From: Escherichia coli
Lineage (GTDB): Bacteria; Pseudomonadota; Gammaproteobacteria; Enterobacterales; Enterobacteriaceae
Assembly: GCF_003334315.1 (NCBI RefSeq)
Contig: NZ_QOWR01000001.1
Length of the DNA stretch: 64,000 nucleotides
Strand: one strand, 5' to 3'
The stretch's first letter is position 1, and each line of letters opens with the position of its first letter. The notes beneath the pieces were generated by a model. It saw nothing but the letters and a program-made list of their open reading frames with translations. It was not told where the DNA came from and ran no database searches. The translations under genes and the position numbers were made by a program. This document shows positions 2,494 through 54,307 of the stretch, one piece after another.

Positions 2494-3534
<1,041 letters not shown>

Positions 3535-3560
3535 TCAAGAAATATACAACGATCCCGCCA

Positions 3561-3848
3561 TCACCAGGCCATCTGGCTGGAGTGCTTAACCGTAAGTCTG
3601 ACGAAATCAGTATAGTCAATGAGAATGATGTCGTTCGAAATTTGACCAGTCAAACCGCGGGCAATAAGGTCTTCGTTCAGGGCATAGACCTTAATGGGGG
3701 CATTACGCAGACTTTCAAGGTAGCGGTTACCGTCAACTGCGGCAGTTACGCCATCTTGCAATAACAGCAGTTCGTCGCCTTCACTGAGCAGACGCAGCAG
3801 CGCAGCAAAATCCGTCAGCCAGGGTGAGCGATGTAATGTGTGCAGCAT
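3561..3848 (-). CDS. tusB: Sulfur-relay protein TusB
   Basis: 95-aa ORF, last gene of the yheO-tusDCB run immediately upstream of rpsL. Confidence 0.85.
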
Positions 3849-3855
3849 AAACGCC

Positions 3856-4214
3856 TCAAAACCTCAAAATTACATCGTAGTTGCCAAGTTCGCGGCGTAA
3901 GGCATCTGCTTCGAGCGGCGTGGCTTCGACAACAAAGGGTGTCTGCGGACCTAACCCGCGTTCGCGCAGTGAAGCCGCACAAACCCAGCACTGTTCAATG
4001 TCGTACAGACCCAACAATTTAAAAGTGGCAATGTAATCACGCGCCAGCACTGCATCGGGCTTTTGTCCTGGCAGCAGCTGAAAAACGCCATCAGCAATAA
4101 AGAAGACACCCAGATCGTCAGTTAATGCGGAAGTTGCCAGTAAAGCATCTAAACCTTCCCGGCCTGCGGCTGTACCATGAGGTGCAGTAGAAAAAACAAA
4201 CGCAATTCGTTTCA

Positions 4215-4215
<1 letters not shown>
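3856..4215 (-). CDS. tusC: Sulfur-relay protein TusC
   Basis: 119-aa ORF; start overlaps the tusD stop by 1 nt (TGATG). Confidence 0.85.
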
Positions 4216-5323
<1,108 letters not shown>

Positions 5324-19743: not shown

Positions 19744-20346
19744 TTACTCAGATTCCCCGGCTTCGCTTACCACTTTGCTAAATATCATCTGCAGTGCGGT
19801 GAGATCCCCCATTGCCCCACTCTGATTTGCCTGATTCCAGGCCTCTTTTTCGATACCCTGCCAGCTCAGTTGATATCCGGCATGAATCGCCAGTTGCTCG
19901 AAGAAGATCCGCTGTGCCAGACCACTTCCCACCCGGAAGGGATGCAGCACGTTGATTTCACAATAGTAATGCGCCAGCCGCTCGACGAACTTCGCTTTCT
20001 CCAGGCCAACCAGATAACCTTCTTCCTCCAGATCCTGCATCAGGGCATTGCCCTCTTTTTCGATATAAGCAAAGTGGCAGAACGGCGTATCACCCTGATA
20101 AATATCAACTTCACGCAGTTGCCCTGCCCAGTCGAAAATATCCTGATACAGCTGGCGATGGATAGTTCGCAAATGCGGTAAACCGCGCACCAGCGGACCA
20201 AGCTCAATGGTCGCAGCACGCAGCGCCGTCATTTCGTAAGCGGCCTGTTCCAGCCGCTGCTGCTGGCGGATGTTCAGCCGGTTACGCATGATATCAAGGC
20301 CTGGATAAAGATACGGATCGCGCCCTTCGCCGAATTTATCGCTCAT
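19744..20346 (-). CDS. fic: Fic-family protein with degenerate active-site motif
   Basis: 200-aa ORF; motif region reads [12 protein letters not shown] (hand-checked from DNA at 19921-19944) versus canonical HPFx[DE]GNGRxxR. Confidence 0.88.
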
Positions 20347-21450: not shown

Positions 21451-22632
21451 ATGACTAACAGCAATCGCATCAAGCTCACATGGATTAGCTTTCTCTCCTA
21501 CGCACTGACTGGTGCGTTGGTTATTGTCACCGGGATGGTGATGGGAAATATCGCCGATTATTTCAATCTGCCTGTTTCCAGTATGAGTAATACCTTCACC
21601 TTCCTCAACGCCGGCATTTTAATCTCTATCTTCCTCAACGCCTGGCTGATGGAAATCGTCCCGTTGAAAACGCAGTTACGTTTTGGCTTTCTCCTGATGG
21701 TGCTGGCGGTTGCCGGTTTGATGTTCAGCCACAGCCTGGCGCTGTTCTCGGCGGCGATGTTCATTCTCGGGGTGGTCAGCGGCATCACCATGTCGATTGG
21801 TACATTCCTGGTAACACAAATGTATGAAGGGCGTCAGCGCGGTTCCCGCCTGTTATTTACCGACTCCTTCTTCAGTATGGCTGGGATGATTTTCCCAATG
21901 ATCGCCGCGTTTCTACTGGCGCGCAGCATTGAGTGGTACTGGGTTTATGCCTGCATCGGGCTGGTGTATGTCGCTATTTTTATTCTGACCTTCGGCTGTG
22001 AGTTCCCGGCGCTGGGCAAACATGCGCCAAAAACGGATGCTCCGGTAGAGAAAGAAAAGTGGGGGATCGGCGTACTGTTTCTCTCTGTTGCGGCGCTGTG
22101 CTACATCCTCGGTCAGTTAGGTTTAATCTCCTGGGTGCCTGAGTATGCCAAAGGCCTGGGCATGAGCCTGAACGACGCGGGCACGCTGGTGAGTAACTTC
22201 TGGATGTCATACATGGTCGGCATGTGGGCGTTCAGCTTTATTCTTCGCTTCTTTGATTTGCAACGCATTCTGACCGTACTGGCTGGTCTGGCTGCGATTC
22301 TGATGTACGTCTTTAACACCGGAACACCAGCACATATGGCGTGGTCAATTCTCGCTCTGGGCTTCTTCTCCAGCGCGATCTATACCACCATCATCACCCT
22401 GGGTTCACAGCAGACCAAAGTACCGTCGCCAAAACTGGTTAACTTTGTCCTGACCTGCGGAACCATCGGTACTATGTTGACCTTTGTGGTTACCGGCCCG
22501 ATTGTTGAACATAGCGGTCCGCAGGCGGCACTGCTTACAGCAAACGGTCTGTACGCTGTCGTCTTTGTGATGTGCTTCCTGTTAGGTTTCGTCAGCCGTC
22601 ACCGTCAGCATAACACCCTGACCTCTCATTAA
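21451..22632 (+). CDS. tsgA: MFS-type membrane protein TsgA
   Basis: 393-aa multi-TM ORF; hairpin terminator at 22641-22671. Confidence 0.8.
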
Positions 22633-22640
22633 TTGCTAAT

Positions 22641-22671
22641 GCCGGACGGCACTATCGTCGTCCGGCCTTTT
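22641..22671 (+). terminator. tsgA terminator
   Basis: GCCGGACGGC...GTCGTCCGGCC hairpin followed by TTTT. Confidence 0.6.
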
Positions 22672-22792
22672 CCTCTCTTCCCCCGCTACGTGCATCTATT
22701 TCTATAAACCCGTTCATTTTGTCTATTTTTTGCACAAACATGAAATATCAGACAATTCCGTGACTTAAGAAAATTTATACAAATCAGCAATA

Positions 22793-22808
22793 TACCCCTT
22801 AAGGAGTA
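22793..22808 (+). promoter_or_regulatory. Candidate NarL/NarP 7-2-7 site in nirB promoter
   Basis: TACCCCT-TA-AGGAGTA inverted heptamers, about 22 bp upstream of the FNR site. Confidence 0.65.
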
Positions 22809-22821
22809 TATAAAGGTGAAT

Positions 22822-22835
22822 TTGATTTACATCAA
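22822..22835 (+). promoter_or_regulatory. FNR binding site of the nirB promoter
   Basis: Perfect TTGAT-N4-ATCAA palindrome (TTGATTTACATCAA) about 60 bp upstream of the nirB ATG. Confidence 0.8.
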
Positions 22836-22893
22836 TAAGCGGGGTTGCTGAATCGTTAAGGTAGGCGGTAATAGAAAAGAAATCGAGGCAAAA

Positions 22894-25437
22894 ATGAGCA
22901 AAGTCAGACTCGCAATTATCGGTAACGGTATGGTCGGCCATCGCTTTATCGAAGATCTTCTTGATAAATCTGATGCGGCCAACTTTGATATTACCGTTTT
23001 CTGTGAAGAACCGCGCATCGCTTATGACCGCGTACACCTCTCGTCTTACTTCTCTCACCACACCGCCGAAGAGCTGTCGCTGGTGCGCGAAGGCTTCTAC
23101 GAGAAACACGGCATCAAAGTTCTGGTCGGCGAACGCGCTATCACCATCAACCGTCAGGAGAAGGTGATTCACTCCAGCGCCGGACGTACCGTTTTTTATG
23201 ACAAGCTGATCATGGCAACCGGTTCCTACCCGTGGATCCCACCAATCAAAGGTTCTGATACTCAGGACTGCTTTGTCTATCGCACCATTGAAGACCTCAA
23301 CGCCATTGAATCCTGCGCCCGTCGCAGCAAACGCGGTGCCGTTGTTGGTGGCGGCCTGTTAGGTCTGGAAGCCGCTGGCGCGCTGAAAAACTTAGGTATT
23401 GAAACCCACGTTATCGAATTTGCCCCTATGCTGATGGCGGAACAGCTTGATCAGATGGGTGGCGAGCAGCTGCGTCGCAAAATCGAAAGTATGGGCGTGC
23501 GCGTTCACACCAGCAAAAACACCCTTGAGATTGTGCAGGAAGGTGTCGAAGCGCGTAAAACCATGCGTTTTGCCGACGGCAGCGAACTGGAAGTCGACTT
23601 TATCGTCTTCTCTACCGGTATCCGTCCGCGCGATAAGCTGGCAACCCAGTGTGGTCTGGACGTTGCTCCGCGTGGGGGTATTGTCATTAATGATTCCTGC
23701 CAGACTTCCGATCCGGATATCTACGCCATCGGTGAATGCGCAAGCTGGAGCAACCGTGTATTTGGTCTGGTAGCACCAGGCTACAAAATGGCGCAGGTCG
23801 CCGTTGACCATATTCTCGGTAGCGAAAACGCCTTTGAAGGTGCTGACCTTAGCGCCAAGCTGAAACTGCTGGGCGTAGACGTAGGCGGTATTGGTGATGC
23901 GCACGGTCGCACGCCTGGCGCACGTAGCTACGTTTACCTCGACGAAAGCAAAGAGATCTACAAACGCCTGATTGTCAGCGAAGACAACAAAACCCTGCTC
24001 GGTGCGGTACTGGTGGGCGATACCAGCGACTACGGCAACCTGCTGCAACTGGTGCTGAATGCTATCGAGCTGCCGGAAAACCCGGATTCTCTGATTCTGC
24101 CGGCGCACTCGGGTAGCGGTAAGCCGTCTATCGGTGTTGATAAACTGCCGGACAGCGCGCAAATCTGCTCCTGCTTCGACGTCACCAAAGGTGATCTGAT
24201 TGCTGCCATCAACAAAGGCTGCCACACAGTTGCGGCGCTGAAAGCTGAAACCAAAGCGGGTACTGGCTGCGGTGGCTGTATCCCGCTGGTCACTCAGGTA
24301 CTGAACGCGGAACTGGCGAAACAGGGCATCGAAGTTAACAACAACCTGTGCGAACACTTTGCTTATTCGCGTCAGGAACTGTTCCATTTGATCCGCGTTG
24401 AAGGCATTAAAACCTTCGAAGAACTGCTGGCGAAACACGGCAAAGGCTACGGTTGTGAAGTTTGTAAACCAACCGTCGGTTCGCTGCTGGCCTCCTGCTG
24501 GAACGAATACATTCTGAAGCCGGAACATACTCCGCTGCAGGATTCTAACGACAACTTCCTCGCTAACATCCAGAAAGACGGCACCTACTCGGTGATCCCG
24601 CGTTCTCCGGGCGGTGAAATCACCCCGGAAGGGCTGATGGCAGTGGGTCGTATCGCGCGTGAATTTAATCTCTACACCAAAATCACCGGCTCCCAGCGCC
24701 TGGCGATGTTTGGCGCACAGAAAGACGATCTGCCGGAAATCTGGCGTCAGCTGATTGAAGCCGGTTTCGAAACCGGTCATGCCTATGCAAAAGCACTGCG
24801 TATGGCGAAAACCTGCGTGGGTAGCACCTGGTGCCGCTACGGTGTTGGCGATAGCGTCGGCCTCGGCGTGGAACTGGAAAACCGCTACAAAGGCATCCGT
24901 ACGCCGCACAAAATGAAGTTCGGTGTCTCCGGCTGTACCCGTGAATGTTCAGAAGCTCAGGGTAAAGACGTGGGTATTATCGCCACTGAAAAAGGCTGGA
25001 ACCTGTATGTTTGCGGTAACGGCGGCATGAAACCGCGTCATGCGGATCTGCTGGCAGCGGATATCGATCGCGAAACGCTGATCAAATATCTCGACCGCTT
25101 CATGATGTTCTACATCCGTACCGCCGACAAACTGACGCGTACCGCACCGTGGTTAGAAAACCTTGAAGGCGGCATTGATTACCTGAAAGCAGTGATCATT
25201 GACGACAAACTGGGGCTGAACGCTCATCTGGAAGAAGAGATGGCGCGCCTGCGTGAAGCGGTAGTGTGTGAGTGGACTGAAACGGTCAATACGCCGTCTG
25301 CGCAGACTCGCTTCAAACACTTCATCAACAGCGACAAGCGTGACCCGAACGTGCAGATGGTGCCAGAGCGCGAACAGCACCGTCCGGCAACGCCATATGA
25401 ACGTATCCCGGTAACTCTGGTGGAGGACAACGCATGA
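22894..25437 (+). CDS. nirB: NADH-dependent nitrite reductase large subunit
   Basis: 847-aa ORF with FAD/NAD Rossmann motif (IIGNGMVG), Cys clusters and siroheme domain; FNR site upstream. Confidence 0.96.
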   Translation: MSKVRLAIIGNGMVGHRFIEDLLDKSDAANFDITVFCEEPRIAYDRVHLSSYFSHHTAEELSLVREGFYEKHGIKVLVGERAITINRQEKVIHSSAGRTVFYDKLIMATGSYPWIPPIKGSDTQDCFVYRTIEDLNAIESCARRSKRGAVVGGGLLGLEAAGALKNLGIETHVIEFAPMLMAEQLDQMGGEQLRRKIESMGVRVHTSKNTLEIVQEGVEARKTMRFADGSELEVDFIVFSTGIRPRDKLATQCGLDVAPRGGIVINDSCQTSDPDIYAIGECASWSNRVFGLVAPGYKMAQVAVDHILGSENAFEGADLSAKLKLLGVDVGGIGDAHGRTPGARSYVYLDESKEIYKRLIVSEDNKTLLGAVLVGDTSDYGNLLQLVLNAIELPENPDSLILPAHSGSGKPSIGVDKLPDSAQICSCFDVTKGDLIAAINKGCHTVAALKAETKAGTGCGGCIPLVTQVLNAELAKQGIEVNNNLCEHFAYSRQELFHLIRVEGIKTFEELLAKHGKGYGCEVCKPTVGSLLASCWNEYILKPEHTPLQDSNDNFLANIQKDGTYSVIPRSPGGEITPEGLMAVGRIAREFNLYTKITGSQRLAMFGAQKDDLPEIWRQLIEAGFETGHAYAKALRMAKTCVGSTWCRYGVGDSVGLGVELENRYKGIRTPHKMKFGVSGCTRECSEAQGKDVGIIATEKGWNLYVCGNGGMKPRHADLLAADIDRETLIKYLDRFMMFYIRTADKLTRTAPWLENLEGGIDYLKAVIIDDKLGLNAHLEEEMARLREAVVCEWTETVNTPSAQTRFKHFINSDKRDPNVQMVPEREQHRPATPYERIPVTLVEDNA

Positions 25438-25760
25438 GCCAGTGGAAAGACATCTGCAAAATCGATGACATCCTGCCTGAAACCGGCGTCTGCGCGCTGT
25501 TAGGTGACGAGCAGGTAGCAATTTTCCGCCCGTATCATAGCGACCAGGTGTTTGCGATCAGCAACATCGACCCGTTCTTCGAGTCCAGCGTGCTGTCACG
25601 CGGGCTGATTGCGGAACACCAGGGCGAGCTGTGGGTCGCCAGCCCGCTGAAAAAACAGCGTTTTCGCTTAAGTGATGGCTTGTGCATGGAAGACGAACAG
25701 TTTTCCGTCAAACATTACGAAGCACGAGTGAAAGACGGCGTGGTGCAGCTGCGCGGTTAA
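25434..25760 (+). CDS. nirD: Nitrite reductase small subunit (Rieske-like)
   Basis: 108-aa ORF; ATGA overlap with nirB stop. Confidence 0.9.
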   Translation: MSQWKDICKIDDILPETGVCALLGDEQVAIFRPYHSDQVFAISNIDPFFESSVLSRGLIAEHQGELWVASPLKKQRFRLSDGLCMEDEQFSVKHYEARVKDGVVQLRG

Positions 25761-25885
25761 TGTTTTAACGGGAGGCGCAATGCCTCCCCTTTTTGCATGG
25801 TCCTGTAATGACCTTCGGTATATTGCAGGACATTTTTTAAACTTTTTGTTTTATTTTTTGTTTTTATTTTTTAAAGGATAATCAA

Positions 25886-26692
25886 ATGTTTACAGACACT
25901 ATTAATAAGTGTGCGGCTAATGCTGCGCGCATTGCACGCCTGTCGGCAAATAACCCGCTCGGCTTTTGGGTCAGCTCCGCCATGGCGGGCGCATATGTGG
26001 GTCTTGGGATCATCCTGATTTTCACGCTCGGTAATTTGCTCGACCCGTCCGTACGTCCGCTGGTGATGGGCGCGACCTTTGGTATCGCCTTAACGCTGGT
26101 GATTATCGCCGGTTCTGAACTGTTCACCGGACACACCATGTTCCTCACCTTTGGGGTAAAAGCGGGCAGCATCAGCCACGGGCAAATGTGGGCAATCCTG
26201 CCGCAAACCTGGCTGGGTAACCTGGTCGGTTCCGTCTTCGTTGCCATGCTCTATAGCTGGGGCGGCGGTAGCCTGCTGCCGGTAGATACCAGCATCGTTC
26301 ACTCCGTCGCGCTGGCTAAAACCACTGCACCGGCAATGGTACTGTTCTTCAAAGGTGCATTGTGTAACTGGCTGGTTTGCCTGGCTATCTGGATGGCGCT
26401 GCGCACTGAAGGGGCGGCGAAATTTATCGCTATCTGGTGGTGTCTGCTGGCATTTATCGCGTCCGGCTACGAGCACTCCATCGCTAACATGACGCTGTTC
26501 GCCCTCTCCTGGTTCGGCAACCACAGCGAAGCCTACACGCTGGCGGGTATTGGTCATAACCTGCTGTGGGTGACGCTGGGTAATACTTTATCAGGTGCCG
26601 TATTCATGGGATTGGGTTATTGGTATGCTACGCCGAAAGCGAATCGTCCGGTTGCGGACAAATTTAATCAAACTGAAACGGCTGCCGGTTAA
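25886..26692 (+). CDS. nirC: Nitrite transporter (formate/nitrite transporter family)
   Basis: 268-aa multi-TM ORF downstream of nirD. Confidence 0.9.
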   Translation: MFTDTINKCAANAARIARLSANNPLGFWVSSAMAGAYVGLGIILIFTLGNLLDPSVRPLVMGATFGIALTLVIIAGSELFTGHTMFLTFGVKAGSISHGQMWAILPQTWLGNLVGSVFVAMLYSWGGGSLLPVDTSIVHSVALAKTTAPAMVLFFKGALCNWLVCLAIWMALRTEGAAKFIAIWWCLLAFIASGYEHSIANMTLFALSWFGNHSEAYTLAGIGHNLLWVTLGNTLSGAVFMGLGYWYATPKANRPVADKFNQTETAAG

Positions 26693-26710
26693 TTACTAAG
26701 GGGTTTTTAC

Positions 26711-28084
26711 GTGGATCATTTGCCTATATTTTGCCAATTACGCGATCGCGACTGTCTGATTGTCGGCGGTGGTGATGTCGCGGAACGCAAAGCAAGGTTG
26801 CTGTTAGACGCAGGCGCTCGCTTAACGGTGAATGCATTAGCGTTTATTCCACAGTTCACCGCATGGGCAGATGCAGGCATGTTAACCCTCGTCGAAGGGC
26901 CATTTGATGAAAGCCTTCTCGACACCTGCTGGCTGGCGATTGCAGCGACGGATGATGACGCGCTTAACCAGCGCGTCAGCGAAGCCGCTGAAGCTCGTCG
27001 CATCTTCTGTAACGTAGTCGATGCGCCGAAAGCCGCCAGCTTTATTATGCCGTCGATTATTGACCGCTCACCGCTCATGGTCGCGGTCTCCTCTGGCGGC
27101 ACCTCTCCGGTTCTGGCACGCCTGTTGCGCGAAAAACTCGAATCACTGCTGCCGTTGCATCTGGGCCAGGTAGCGAAATACGCCGGGCAATTACGCGGGC
27201 GAGTGAAACAACAGTTCGCCACGATGGGTGAGCGTCGCCGTTTCTGGGAGAAATTGTTCGTTAACGATCGCCTGGCGCAGTCGCTGGCAAACAACGATCA
27301 GAAAGCCATTACTGAAACCACCGAACAGTTAATCAACGAACCGCTTGACCATCGCGGTGAAGTGGTGCTGGTTGGTGCAGGTCCGGGCGATGCCGGGCTG
27401 CTGACGCTGAAAGGACTGCAACAAATTCAGCAGGCAGATGTGGTGGTCTACGACCGTCTGGTTTCTGACGATATTATGAATCTGGTACGCCGCGATGCTG
27501 ATCGCGTTTTCGTCGGCAAACGCGCGGGATACCACTGTGTACCGCAGGAAGAGATTAACCAGATCCTGCTGCGGGAAGCGCAAAAAGGCAAACGCGTGGT
27601 GCGGCTGAAAGGTGGCGATCCGTTTATTTTTGGCCGTGGTGGCGAAGAGCTGGAAACACTGTGCAACGCGGGTATTCCGTTCTCGGTGGTTCCGGGTATT
27701 ACCGCAGCTTCTGGTTGCTCTGCCTATTCGGGTATTCCACTCACGCATCGCGATTATGCCCAGAGCGTACGCTTAATTACCGGACACTTAAAAACCGGTG
27801 GCGAGCTGGACTGGGAAAACCTGGCGGCAGAAAAACAGACGCTGGTGTTCTATATGGGGTTGAATCAGGCCGCGACTATTCAGCAAAAGCTGATTGAACA
27901 CGGTATGCCTGGCGAAATGCCGGTGGCAATTGTCGAAAACGGAACGGCAGTCACGCAGCGCGTGATTGACGGTACGCTCACGCAACTCGGTGAACTTGCT
28001 CAGCAAATGAACAGTCCATCGCTAATTATTATTGGTCGGGTTGTTGGCCTGCGCGATAAACTGAACTGGTTCTCCAACCATTAA
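26711..28084 (+). CDS. cysG: Siroheme synthase
   Basis: 457-aa ORF starting at GTG 26711 (MDHLPIF...); N-terminal Rossmann domain plus C-terminal methyltransferase domain. Confidence 0.9.
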
Positions 28085-28330
28085 TTTAACCCGGGCCAGA
28101 GAATTCTGGCCTTCTTAATGACTCTTTTTATATATTCAGCAAATAAAACATAGCCCCTTAATAAATATTATCTGCTAATGGGTTATATTCACCGTTACAG
28201 CGACTTACAAAATTAAGTCATTCGCTCACTGACGCCAATTAAATATTCCTGTATCGTTCTTAACGAGCAGTCTGCTTATATTCATATAATCAATGAATAT
28301 TAATTAATATATAATACATAGGGAATGTAA

Positions 28331-51754: not shown

Positions 51755-54307
51755 GTGAAGTTCGTAAAGTATTTTTTGATCCTTGCAGTCTGTTGCATTC
51801 TGCTGGGAGCAGGCTCGATTTATGGCCTATACCGCTACATCGAGCCACAACTGCCGGATGTGGCGACATTAAAAGATGTTCGCCTGCAAATTCCGATGCA
51901 GATTTACAGCGCCGATGGCGAGCTGATTGCTCAATACGGTGAGAAACGTCGTATTCCGGTTACGTTGGATCAAATCCCACCGGAGATGGTGAAAGCCTTT
52001 ATCGCGACAGAAGACAGCCGCTTCTACGAGCATCACGGCGTTGACCCGGTGGGGATCTTCCGTGCAGCAAGCGTGGCGCTGTTCTCCGGTCACGCGTCAC
52101 AAGGGGCAAGTACCATTACCCAGCAGCTGGCGAGAAACTTCTTCCTCAGTCCAGAACGCACGCTGATGCGTAAGATTAAGGAAGTCTTCCTCGCGATTCG
52201 CATTGAACAGCTGCTGACGAAAGACGAGATCCTCGAGCTTTATCTGAACAAGATTTACCTTGGTTACCGCGCCTATGGTGTCGGTGCTGCGGCACAAGTC
52301 TATTTCGGAAAAACGGTCGACCAACTGACGCTGAACGAAATGGCGGTGATAGCCGGGCTGCCGAAAGCGCCTTCCACCTTCAACCCGCTCTACTCGATGG
52401 ATCGTGCCGTCGCGCGGCGTAACGTCGTGCTGTCGCGGATGCTGGATGAAGGGTATATCACCCAACAACAGTTCGATCAGACACGCACTGAGGCGATTAA
52501 CGCTAACTATCACGCGCCGGAGATTGCTTTCTCTGCGCCGTACCTGAGCGAAATGGTGCGCCAGGAGATGTATAACCGTTATGGCGAAAGTGCCTATGAA
52601 GACGGTTATCGCATTTACACCACCATCACCCGCAAAGTGCAGCAGGCCGCGCAGCAGGCGGTACGTAATAACGTGCTGGACTACGACATGCGCCACGGCT
52701 ATCGCGGCCCGGCAAATGTGCTGTGGAAAGTGGGCGAGTCGGCGTGGGATAACAACAAGATTACCGATACGCTGAAGGCGCTGCCGACCTATGGTCCGCT
52801 GCTGCCTGCCGCAGTCACCAGCGCCAATCCTCAGGAAGCGACGGCAATGCTGGCGGACGGGTCGACTGTCGCATTGAGTATGGACGGCGTTCGCTGGGCG
52901 CGTCCTTACCGTTCGGATACTCAGCAGGGACCGACGCCGCGTAAAGTGACCGATGTTCTGCAAACGGGACAGCAAATCTGGGTTCGTCAGGTCGGCGATG
53001 CATGGTGGCTGGCACAAGTGCCGGAAGTGAACTCGGCGCTGGTGTCGATCAATCCGCAAAATGGTGCCGTTATGGCGCTGGTCGGTGGCTTTGATTTCAA
53101 TCAGAGCAAGTTTAACCGCGCCACCCAGGCACTGCGTCAGGTGGGTTCCAACATCAAACCGTTCCTCTACACCGCGGCGATGGATAAAGGTCTGACGCTG
53201 GCAAGTATGTTGAACGATGTGCCAATTTCCCGCTGGGATGCAGGTGCCGGTTCTGACTGGCAGCCGAAGAACTCGCCGCCACAATATGCCGGTCCAATTC
53301 GCTTACGTCAGGGGCTGGGTCAGTCGAAAAACGTGGTGATGGTACGCGCAATGCGGGCGATGGGCGTCGACTACGCTGCAGAATATCTGCAACGCTTCGG
53401 CTTCCCGGCACAAAACATTGTCCACACCGAATCGCTGGCGCTGGGTTCAGCGTCCTTCACCCCAATGCAGGTGGCGCGCGGCTACGCGGTCATGGCGAAC
53501 GGCGGCTTCCTGGTGGACCCGTGGTTTATCAGCAAAATTGAAAACGATCAGGGCGGCGTGATTTTCGAAGCGAAACCGAAAGTAGCCTGCCCGGAATGCG
53601 ATATTCCGGTGATTTACGGTGATACGCAGAAATCGAACGTGCTGGAAAATAACGATGTTGAAGATGTCGCTATCTCCCGCGAGCAGCAGAATGTTTCTGT
53701 ACCAATGCCGCAGCTGGAGCAGGCAAATCAGGCGTTAGTGGCGAAGACTGGCGCGCAGGAGTACGCACCGCACGTCATCAACACTCCGCTGGCATTCCTG
53801 ATTAAGAGTGCTTTGAACACCAATATCTTTGGTGAGCCAGGCTGGCAGGGTACTGGCTGGCGTGCAGGTCGTGATTTGCAGCGTCGCGATATCGGCGGGA
53901 AAACCGGGACCACTAACAGTTCGAAAGATGCGTGGTTCTCGGGTTACGGTCCGGGCGTTGTGACCTCGGTCTGGATTGGCTTTGATGATCACCGTCGTAA
54001 TCTCGGTCATACAACGGCTTCCGGAGCGATTAAAGATCAGATCTCAGGTTACGAAGGCGGTGCCAAGAGTGCCCAGCCTGCATGGGACGCTTATATGAAA
54101 GCCGTTCTTGAAGGTGTGCCGGAGCAGCCGCTGACGCCGCCACCGGGTATTGTGACGGTGAATATCGATCGCAGCACCGGGCAGTTAGCTAATGGTGGCA
54201 ACAGCCGCGAAGAGTATTTCATCGAAGGTACGCAGCCGACACAACAGGCAGTGCACGAGGTGGGAACGACCATTATCGATAATGGCGAGGCACAGGAATT
54301 GTTCTGA
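51755..54307 (+). CDS. mrcA: Penicillin-binding protein 1A (glycosyltransferase + transpeptidase)
   Basis: GTG at 51755 gives 850 aa; an in-frame ATG at 51731 gives 858 aa. SxxK transpeptidase motif (SNIK) present. Confidence 0.9.
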   Translation: MKFVKYFLILAVCCILLGAGSIYGLYRYIEPQLPDVATLKDVRLQIPMQIYSADGELIAQYGEKRRIPVTLDQIPPEMVKAFIATEDSRFYEHHGVDPVGIFRAASVALFSGHASQGASTITQQLARNFFLSPERTLMRKIKEVFLAIRIEQLLTKDEILELYLNKIYLGYRAYGVGAAAQVYFGKTVDQLTLNEMAVIAGLPKAPSTFNPLYSMDRAVARRNVVLSRMLDEGYITQQQFDQTRTEAINANYHAPEIAFSAPYLSEMVRQEMYNRYGESAYEDGYRIYTTITRKVQQAAQQAVRNNVLDYDMRHGYRGPANVLWKVGESAWDNNKITDTLKALPTYGPLLPAAVTSANPQEATAMLADGSTVALSMDGVRWARPYRSDTQQGPTPRKVTDVLQTGQQIWVRQVGDAWWLAQVPEVNSALVSINPQNGAVMALVGGFDFNQSKFNRATQALRQVGSNIKPFLYTAAMDKGLTLASMLNDVPISRWDAGAGSDWQPKNSPPQYAGPIRLRQGLGQSKNVVMVRAMRAMGVDYAAEYLQRFGFPAQNIVHTESLALGSASFTPMQVARGYAVMANGGFLVDPWFISKIENDQGGVIFEAKPKVACPECDIPVIYGDTQKSNVLENNDVEDVAISREQQNVSVPMPQLEQANQALVAKTGAQEYAPHVINTPLAFLIKSALNTNIFGEPGWQGTGWRAGRDLQRRDIGGKTGTTNSSKDAWFSGYGPGVVTSVWIGFDDHRRNLGHTTASGAIKDQISGYEGGAKSAQPAWDAYMKAVLEGVPEQPLTPPPGIVTVNIDRSTGQLANGGNSREEYFIEGTQPTQQAVHEVGTTIIDNGEAQELF

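What the first reader, a model, noticed from the sequence alone, without database searches (positions are those of the whole stretch)
22793..22835. nirB promoter with textbook FNR and NarL/NarP sites
A perfect TTGAT-N4-ATCAA FNR half-site pair and an upstream 7-2-7 heptamer pair are both intact. This confirms the promoter is unaltered and serves as a positive control for reading regulatory sites in this window.
Basis: partly seen in the sequence, partly recalled or inferred. Interest (0 to 1): 0.15.

Follow-up and report, generated by a model that had tools for sequence, protein, structure and literature searches.

The report
E. coli nirB promoter, common natural allele
This is the well-studied Escherichia coli nitrite-reductase (nirB) promoter with its oxygen-sensor (FNR) and nitrate/nitrite-sensor (NarL/NarP) binding sites intact; it is ordinary, except that it differs by one harmless-looking base from the laboratory K-12 sequence on which all the published work was done.

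Summary
TACCCCT-TA-AGGAGTA lies at 22793-22808 and TTGAT-TTAC-ATCAA at 22822-22835. Each pattern occurs once in the 64-kb window (0.00 and 0.08 expected). Their centres are 28 bp apart, as for -69.5 and -41.5, and the FNR site ends 58 nt before the nirB ATG (22894).

The gene order is ppiA, tsgA, nirBDC-cysG, and the window is 99.71% identical to E. coli K-12 MG1655.

The claim that the promoter is "unaltered" is only partly right. Position 22798 (-72, position 6 of the upstream heptamer) is C here and A in K-12 (TACCCAT). Both fit the consensus TACYYMT.

TACCCCT is the majority E. coli allele (3833 of 5426 complete genomes). The K-12 allele is in 1206, and other Escherichia species also have C. 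The difference sits on an 8.4-kb stretch of dense differences (22096-30541, 1.3% against about 0.13% elsewhere), probably a recombination tract.

The same site layout precedes nirB in 92 species-representative Enterobacterales genomes, where position 6 is C in 47 and A in 45.

Verdict: a known promoter and a valid positive control, of low interest. No binding or expression was tested.

The parts
22641..22666 (+). Intrinsic terminator-like hairpin followed by a T-run after tsgA. It marks the upstream limit of the nirB regulatory region.
   Evidence: 10-pair stem, 8 G-C pairs, T-rich tail. The tsgA ORF ends at 22632.
22781..22786 (+). Conserved block AAATCA (-89 to -84), inside the region where the literature places the IHF I site (-88). 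The assignment to IHF is inferred.
   Evidence: At least 95% conserved in 88 aligned nirB promoters. IHF at -88 is stated in PMC10853779. No binding was tested.
22793..22808 (.). NarL/NarP 7-2-7 site TACCCCT-TA-AGGAGTA, centred at 22800.5 (-69.5).
   Evidence: unique in the window, 0.00 expected. Consensus TACYYMT from PMC4886647. NarL at -69.5 from PMC10853779.
22798..22798 (+). Single-base difference from K-12 (C here, A in K-12). This is position 6 of the upstream heptamer, -72.
   Evidence: alignment; allele counts; other Escherichia species have C.
22822..22835 (.). FNR site TTGATTTACATCAA, a perfect match to the consensus, centred at 22828.5 (-41.5).
   Evidence: Consensus and the -41.5 position for nirBDC-cysG from PMC3688515. 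Identical in every E. coli sequence aligned.
22846..22863 (+). Conserved core GCTGAATCGTTAAGGTAG containing the weak -10 hexamer TAAGGT (22857-22862). By recollection it overlaps the Cra site of pnir.
   Evidence: High conservation. No sigma-70 consensus promoter is called in 22600-22900, which fits an activator-dependent promoter. The Cra assignment comes from memory of Tyson et al. 1997, which is only seen listed as a reference.
22870..22870 (+). Inferred transcription start (+1), 41.5 bp downstream of the FNR site centre.
   Evidence: Inference from the published -41.5 and -69.5 positions and the indel-free alignment with K-12. Not measured here.
22894..25437 (+). nirB (847 aa), the first gene of nirBDC-cysG.
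   Evidence: It differs from K-12 at 35 nucleotides and 2 amino acids.
25434..28084 (+). nirD (25434-25760), nirC (25886-26692) and cysG (26711-28084), the rest of the operon driven by this promoter.
   Evidence: all differences from K-12 in these genes are synonymous.

Best explanation
This is the promoter of the nirBDC-cysG operon (pnir) of a natural, K-12-like E. coli. The mechanism is taken from published K-12 work and inferred here by sequence identity. Without oxygen, an FNR dimer binds the perfect TTGAT-N4-ATCAA site centred 41.5 bp upstream of the start and recruits RNA polymerase to a promoter whose own -35 and -10 elements are weak. IHF (-88), Fis and H-NS hold this activation down. 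With nitrate or nitrite, phosphorylated NarL or NarP binds the 7-2-7 heptamer pair at -69.5, displaces IHF and relieves the repression. The single difference from K-12 inside the site (C instead of A at heptamer position 6) keeps the consensus, is the commonest E. coli allele and is most likely neutral or nearly so. It arrived as part of a different nir-operon allele spanning 22096-30541.
For: The sites are present, unique and correctly spaced. The locus is ppiA-tsgA-nirBDC-cysG, and the whole window is 99.71% identical to K-12 in one collinear alignment. From 22799 to the ATG the sequence is identical to K-12 with no indels. No consensus sigma-70 promoter is found, as expected for an activator-dependent promoter. 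The published mechanism and positions come from PMC3688515, PMC10853779 and PMC4886647. Allele counts are TACCCCT 3833, TACCCAT 1206, TACCACT 128, TACCTCT 51, TACCTAT 7 and CACCCCT 4 of 5426 genomes. In 92 nirB promoters of other Enterobacterales, position 6 is C in 47 and A in 45 and never G or T, although the search left that position free. The SNPs against K-12 cluster in 22096-30541, and the coding changes there are almost all synonymous.
Against: Nothing here tests protein binding, the transcription start or expression in this strain. The -41.5 and -69.5 positions are carried over from K-12. The cross-species set was collected with a pattern that required the fixed bases of both sites, so it shows how free positions vary but not how often the layout is absent. 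Another 197 of 5426 E. coli genomes carry some further variant in 22786-22809 that I did not resolve. Neutrality of the -72 change is an inference.
Confidence: 0.95

Rival explanations
1. The -72 A/C difference, and the other alleles at positions 4-6 of the upstream heptamer, are functional. They would tune the affinity or the NarL-versus-NarP preference of the -69.5 site, so E. coli lineages would differ in how strongly nitrate or nitrite induces nirB. K-12, the reference for all pnir work, would then carry a minority setting.
For: In the E. coli sequences aligned, variation in the 7-2-7-to-ATG stretch (22793 to the ATG) falls almost entirely in heptamer positions 4-6 (at least six alleles plus a rare position-1 change). 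From 22800 to the ATG only one other SNP was seen (22816, strain 3059). The C allele makes the two heptamers more alike (TACCCCT against TACTCCT on the other strand). One strain, PK12, has a perfect palindrome. PMC5434802 reports that promoter sequence divergence between K-12 and pathogenic strains changes regulation at the sister promoter pnrf.
Against: Positions 4-6 are the degenerate YYM positions of the consensus, so relaxed constraint explains the pattern without any function. Across 92 species A and C are equally frequent at position 6. The SNP sits on a stretch of 114 mostly synonymous differences, as expected for a hitch-hiking neutral change. No expression or binding data are available.
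Confidence: 0.2
2. The two motifs are chance matches in an AT-rich intergenic region and carry no regulatory meaning.
For: The FNR pattern alone appears at least once in 8 of 100 shuffled windows.
Against: The heptamer pair was never seen in shuffles. The two sites have exactly the published 28-bp centre spacing. The sequence equals the experimentally dissected K-12 promoter apart from one base. The layout is kept 57-59 nt before the nirB start in 92 species.
Confidence: 0.01

Closest known systems
E. coli K-12 nirB promoter (pnir), as in NC_000913.3 upstream of b3365
   Same: Same locus, gene order and FNR site. Same right-hand heptamer, spacing, -10 region, 5' UTR and distance to the ATG. 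42 of 43 bases of the finding and 258 of 261 bases of the intergenic region are identical.
   Different: Upstream heptamer is TACCCCT instead of TACCCAT (22798, -72). There are two further intergenic SNPs (22638 and 22713). The operon allele differs at 1.3% of positions over 22096-30541.
E. coli nrfA promoter (pnrf)
   Same: According to the literature it is also FNR-activated from -41.5 (PMC3688515), further induced through NarL/NarP, and held down by nucleoid-associated proteins (PMC5434802 abstract).
   Different: It is a different operon (periplasmic nitrite reductase) at a different locus and is not in this window. By recollection its NarL/NarP site is at -74.5, which I did not check here.
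NarL-only promoters yeaR and ogt
   Same: They use the same 7-2-7 recognition element for NarL (PMC10853779).
   Different: There NarL sits at -43.5/-44.5 and recruits RNA polymerase directly. At pnir it sits at -69.5 and acts by removing IHF/Fis repression of an FNR-dependent promoter.

Membership tests
FNR-activated class II promoter (pnir type) | Inverted repeat matching TTGAT-N4-ATCAA | tested here: met
   A 10 of 10 match at 22822-22835, unique in the window. Consensus from PMC3688515.
FNR-activated class II promoter (pnir type) | Site centred about 41.5 bp upstream of the transcription start | not testable with these tools
   The start was not mapped here. The sequence from the FNR site to the ATG is identical to K-12 with no indels, and in K-12 the site is listed at -41.5.
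FNR-activated class II promoter (pnir type) | Weak core promoter that depends on the activator | tested here: met
   The consensus scan finds no sigma-70-like promoter in 22600-22900. The -10 hexamer TAAGGT matches TATAAT at 3 of 6 positions (read).
FNR-activated class II promoter (pnir type) | Drives nirBDC-cysG | tested here: met
   ORFs of 847, 108, 268 and 457 aa follow on the + strand, collinear with K-12 nirB, nirD, nirC and cysG.
NarL/NarP 7-2-7 site | Two TACYYMT heptamers in inverted orientation separated by 2 bp | tested here: met
   TACCCCT-TA-AGGAGTA, where the reverse complement of the second heptamer is TACTCCT. Consensus from PMC4886647.
NarL/NarP 7-2-7 site | Centred at -69.5, 28 bp upstream of the FNR site centre | tested here: met
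   Centres at 22800.5 and 22828.5. The -69.5 position is from PMC10853779.
NarL/NarP 7-2-7 site | Bound by phosphorylated NarL and NarP, and needed for nitrate/nitrite induction | not testable with these tools
   This needs footprinting or EMSA and reporter assays.
Identity with the published (K-12) nirB promoter | No mismatch to the K-12 sequence within the sites | tested here: not met
   One mismatch in 43 bases (22798 C against A) and three in the 261-nt intergenic region.

The most novel reading that the evidence does not exclude
The YYM positions of the upstream NarL/NarP heptamer of pnir are a natural tuning point. The majority allele TACCCCT, and rarer ones such as the perfect palindrome TACTCCT, would give a different NarL/NarP occupancy and induction profile from the K-12 allele TACCCAT. 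The quantitative picture of nirB regulation drawn from K-12 would then not represent about 78% of E. coli.
Probability: 0.15. Interest if true: 0.3.

Novelty: already known. Interest (0 to 1): 0.08.

Why it matters
It matters little beyond quality control. It shows that regulatory sites in this window can be read reliably. It also shows that "matches the textbook consensus" is not the same as "matches the K-12 reference". The one small point of wider use is that the K-12 pnir, the model for FNR/NarL/IHF/Fis interplay, carries a minority allele of the NarL/NarP site (22% of complete E. coli genomes). Whether the majority allele behaves the same has, as far as I could find, not been tested.

Tried and rejected
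1. Full-text searches for the exact site sequences (TACCCATTAAGGAGTA, TACCCCTTAAGGAGTA, TTGATTTACATCAA) found no paper printing them; only the consensus TACYYMT was found. The 7-mers matched thousands of unrelated papers.

2. The primary papers are not held (Tyson 1993, Browning 2004, Wang and Gunsalus 2000; one search was a rejected query). I therefore used the K-12 MG1655 genome as the "published" sequence, and I could not check whether -72 was ever mutated experimentally.

3. The 43-mer and 81-mer megablast identity bands gave only bounds, because end-trimmed alignments count as 100%. I replaced them with 32-mers centred on the variable pair, so that the 28-nt seed must span it. The control with the window allele (3833) falls within those bounds.

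4. The chance-match explanation was rejected.

5. I considered whether the window might be K-12 itself. It is not: there are 184 SNPs and one indel.

Full report
**What is in the sequence**

Reading 22500-23200 shows, on the + strand:
- TACCCCT (22793-22799), TA, AGGAGTA (22802-22808);
- 13 bases;
- TTGAT (22822-22826), TTAC, ATCAA (22831-22835).

The finding's coordinates bracket these two elements exactly. TTGATNNNNATCAA occurs once in the 64-kb window on either strand, with 0.08 expected from dinucleotide-preserving shuffles. The heptamer-pair pattern TACYYMTNNAKRRGTA also occurs once, with none in 100 shuffles.

The centres of the two elements (22800.5 and 22828.5) are 28 bp apart. That is the difference between the published positions -69.5 and -41.5.

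**What surrounds it**

- An 847-aa ORF starts at 22894, 58 nt after the FNR site. ORFs of 108, 268 and 457 aa follow it.
- A 393-aa ORF ends upstream at 22632, followed by a terminator-like hairpin at 22641-22666.
- A 261-nt query covering the intergenic region hits all 5426 complete E. coli genomes, and the feature under the match is annotated nirB.
- The K-12 MG1655 record gives the same order: ppiA, tsgA, nirB, nirD, nirC, cysG.
- The whole window aligns to K-12 coordinates 3471118-3535116 in one piece at 99.71% identity, with 184 mismatches and one 1-bp indel.
- A 22-kb stretch around the promoter is essentially identical to many E. coli isolates from humans, animals and sediment.

The window is therefore chromosomal DNA of a natural E. 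coli close to K-12, but it is not K-12.

**Comparison with the published promoter**

The primary pnir papers are not in the held library, and no held paper prints the site sequences. I therefore used K-12 MG1655, the strain on which that work was done, as the reference.

The tsgA-nirB intergenic region differs from K-12 at three positions:

| Window position | Window | K-12 |
|---|---|---|
| 22638 | A | C |
| 22713 | T | C |
| 22798 | C | A |

The third difference lies inside the finding. It is position 6 of the upstream heptamer, -72 if +1 is 22870. K-12 has TACCCAT and the window has TACCCCT.

From 22799 to the ATG the two sequences are identical with no indels. That stretch holds the second heptamer, the FNR site, the -10 region and the 5' UTR.

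Both versions nevertheless fit the heptamer consensus TACYYMT, where M is A or C (PMC4886647).

**How common the allele is**

Identity bands from 81-mer and 43-mer queries gave only bounds. I therefore used 32-mers with the variable dinucleotide in the centre, so that the 28-nt megablast seed must span it.

Counts among 5426 complete genomes:

| Upstream heptamer | Genomes |
|---|---|
| TACCCCT (this window) | 3833 |
| TACCCAT (K-12) | 1206 |
| TACCACT | 128 |
| TACCTCT | 51 |
| TACCTAT | 7 |
| CACCCCT (breaks the fixed T at position 1) | 4 |
| Some other change in 22786-22809, not resolved | 197 |

Two of the unresolved kind turned up in sampled sequences. Strain PK12 has TACTCCT, which makes the 7-2-7 a perfect palindrome. 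Strain 3059 has a G-to-A change at 22816, between the two sites.

In every E. coli sequence I aligned, the second heptamer, the FNR site, the -10 region and the UTR were unchanged. Four genomes of other or divergent Escherichia lineages (L016, L080, L084, L118) have TACCACT, so C at position 6 is probably ancestral and the K-12 A is derived.

The window thus carries the majority allele, and K-12 carries a minority one (22%).

**Why it differs from K-12**

The 184 SNPs are strongly clustered:
- 114 lie between 22096 and 30541, a density of 1.3%. This stretch covers the 3' end of tsgA, the promoter, nirBDC-cysG, yhfL and the start of frlA.
- The rest of the window differs from K-12 at about 0.13%.
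- Within the stretch, nirB has 35 nucleotide differences but only two amino-acid changes (N286S and L791V). The differences in nirD, nirC and cysG are all synonymous.

This is the usual signature of an allele exchanged by homologous recombination. The promoter difference is part of it. I did not determine which of the two strains is the recombinant.

**Conservation beyond E. coli**

I scanned one genome per species with TACNNNTNNANNNGTA-N13-TTGATNNNNATCAA.

In 92 of these loci, an ATG opening a reading frame with at least 24 of 40 residues identical to the NirB N-terminus lies 57-59 nt downstream. They come from Citrobacter, Klebsiella, Raoultella, Enterobacter, Kosakonia, Kluyvera, Buttiauxella, Cedecea, Pantoea, Erwinia, Pectobacterium, Serratia and others.

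At positions the pattern left free in the upstream heptamer:
- position 6 is C in 47 and A in 45, never G or T;
- position 5 is C in 47, T in 34 and A in 11;
- position 4 is C in 74 and T in 18.

An alignment of 88 of these promoters shows further conserved blocks:
- AAATCA at 22781-22786;
- ACTTA at 22763-22767 and AAAA at 22770-22773, parts of ACTTAAGAAAA (22763-22773);
- GCTGAATCGTTAAGGTAG at 22846-22863, which contains the -10 hexamer TAAGGT;
- most of the 5' UTR with its ribosome-binding site.

There is a caveat. These loci were selected by the pattern, so they show how free positions behave, not how often the layout is lost.

**How it works**

This part rests on established knowledge and is inferred here by sequence identity.
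- PMC3688515 gives the FNR consensus TTGATnnnnATCAA and lists nirBDC-cysG as FNR-activated from -41.5. [quoted passage not shown]
- PMC10853779 places NarL at -69.5 and IHF at -88. It describes the same anti-repression mechanism, in contrast to direct recruitment at yeaR and ogt.
- The consensus scan finds no sigma-70-like promoter in 22600-22900. This fits a promoter that needs FNR.

Placing +1 at 22870 puts TAAGGT (22857-22862) at -13 to -8. It puts the conserved AAATCA block at -89 to -84, within the region assigned to IHF. The overlap of the conserved core with a Cra site is my recollection of Tyson et al. 1997, which I saw only as a listed reference.

No step of binding, start-site choice or induction was tested here.

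**Rival readings**

A chance match is excluded by uniqueness, spacing, near-identity to the dissected K-12 promoter and conservation across species.

The one reading with some novelty is that the alleles at heptamer positions 4-6 tune NarL/NarP binding. Variation in the 7-2-7-to-ATG stretch does concentrate there, and PMC5434802 reports that promoter divergence alters regulation at the sister promoter pnrf. However, these are the degenerate positions of the consensus. A and C are equally frequent across species, and the SNP sits on a stretch of mostly synonymous differences. Relaxed constraint is the simpler account.

**Verdict**

This is a known promoter, correctly recognised and correctly located. 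It is intact in the sense that both sites fit their consensus. It is not identical to the K-12 reference: it differs by one consensus-preserving base that is the commonest state in E. coli. It is suitable as a positive control. Interest is low.

Noticed in passing
window 22096-30541: Dense block of differences from K-12 MG1655: 114 of the window's 184 SNPs, 1.3% against about 0.13% elsewhere. It covers the tsgA 3' end, the nir promoter, nirBDC-cysG, yhfL and the frlA 5' end. Coding changes are almost all synonymous. It looks like a homologous-recombination tract, and I did not determine which strain is the recombinant.
   Followed up: partly
window 2495-4330, 45389-49060, 52786-53290: Three further SNP clusters against K-12. 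By coordinate transfer they lie in rpsG/tusBCD, in damX to hofQ and in mrcA. They suggest more mosaic segments in an otherwise near-identical background.
   Followed up: no
window 28588-28637: A 1-bp insertion (T at 28588) relative to K-12, followed by six SNPs within 50 nt. By coordinate transfer this is the yhfL-frlA intergenic region.
   Followed up: no
window 22796-22798 and loci L122-L125, L128-L130: The upstream NarL/NarP heptamer of pnir has at least seven alleles among E. coli genomes: TACCCCT, TACCCAT, TACCACT, TACCTCT, TACCTAT, TACTCCT and CACCCCT. Among ten E. coli sequences aligned, the only other change between 22800 and the ATG was the 22816 G-to-A in strain 3059. TACTCCT (strain PK12) makes the site a perfect palindrome. 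CACCCCT breaks the fixed T and occurs in 4 genomes.
   Followed up: partly
loci L002-L121 (92 nirB-linked ones): Heptamer position 5 is A in 11 of 92 upstream and 27 of 92 downstream heptamers of nirB promoters. The published consensus TACYYMT therefore looks too narrow at that position for this promoter family.
   Followed up: no
window 22763-22773 and 22781-22786: Short blocks upstream of the NarL/NarP site are conserved across 88 Enterobacterales nirB promoters: ACTTA and AAAA within ACTTAAGAAAA, and AAATCA. They lie where the literature places IHF (-88). By recollection a Fis site (about -97) also lies there. The assignments were not tested.
   Followed up: no
NZ_AP027533.1 (86-kb record labelled plasmid, E. 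coli LR-45), positions 19755-19786: One record classed as a plasmid carries the start of nirB and the end of the promoter region. It is probably a chromosomal fragment or an assembly oddity.
   Followed up: no
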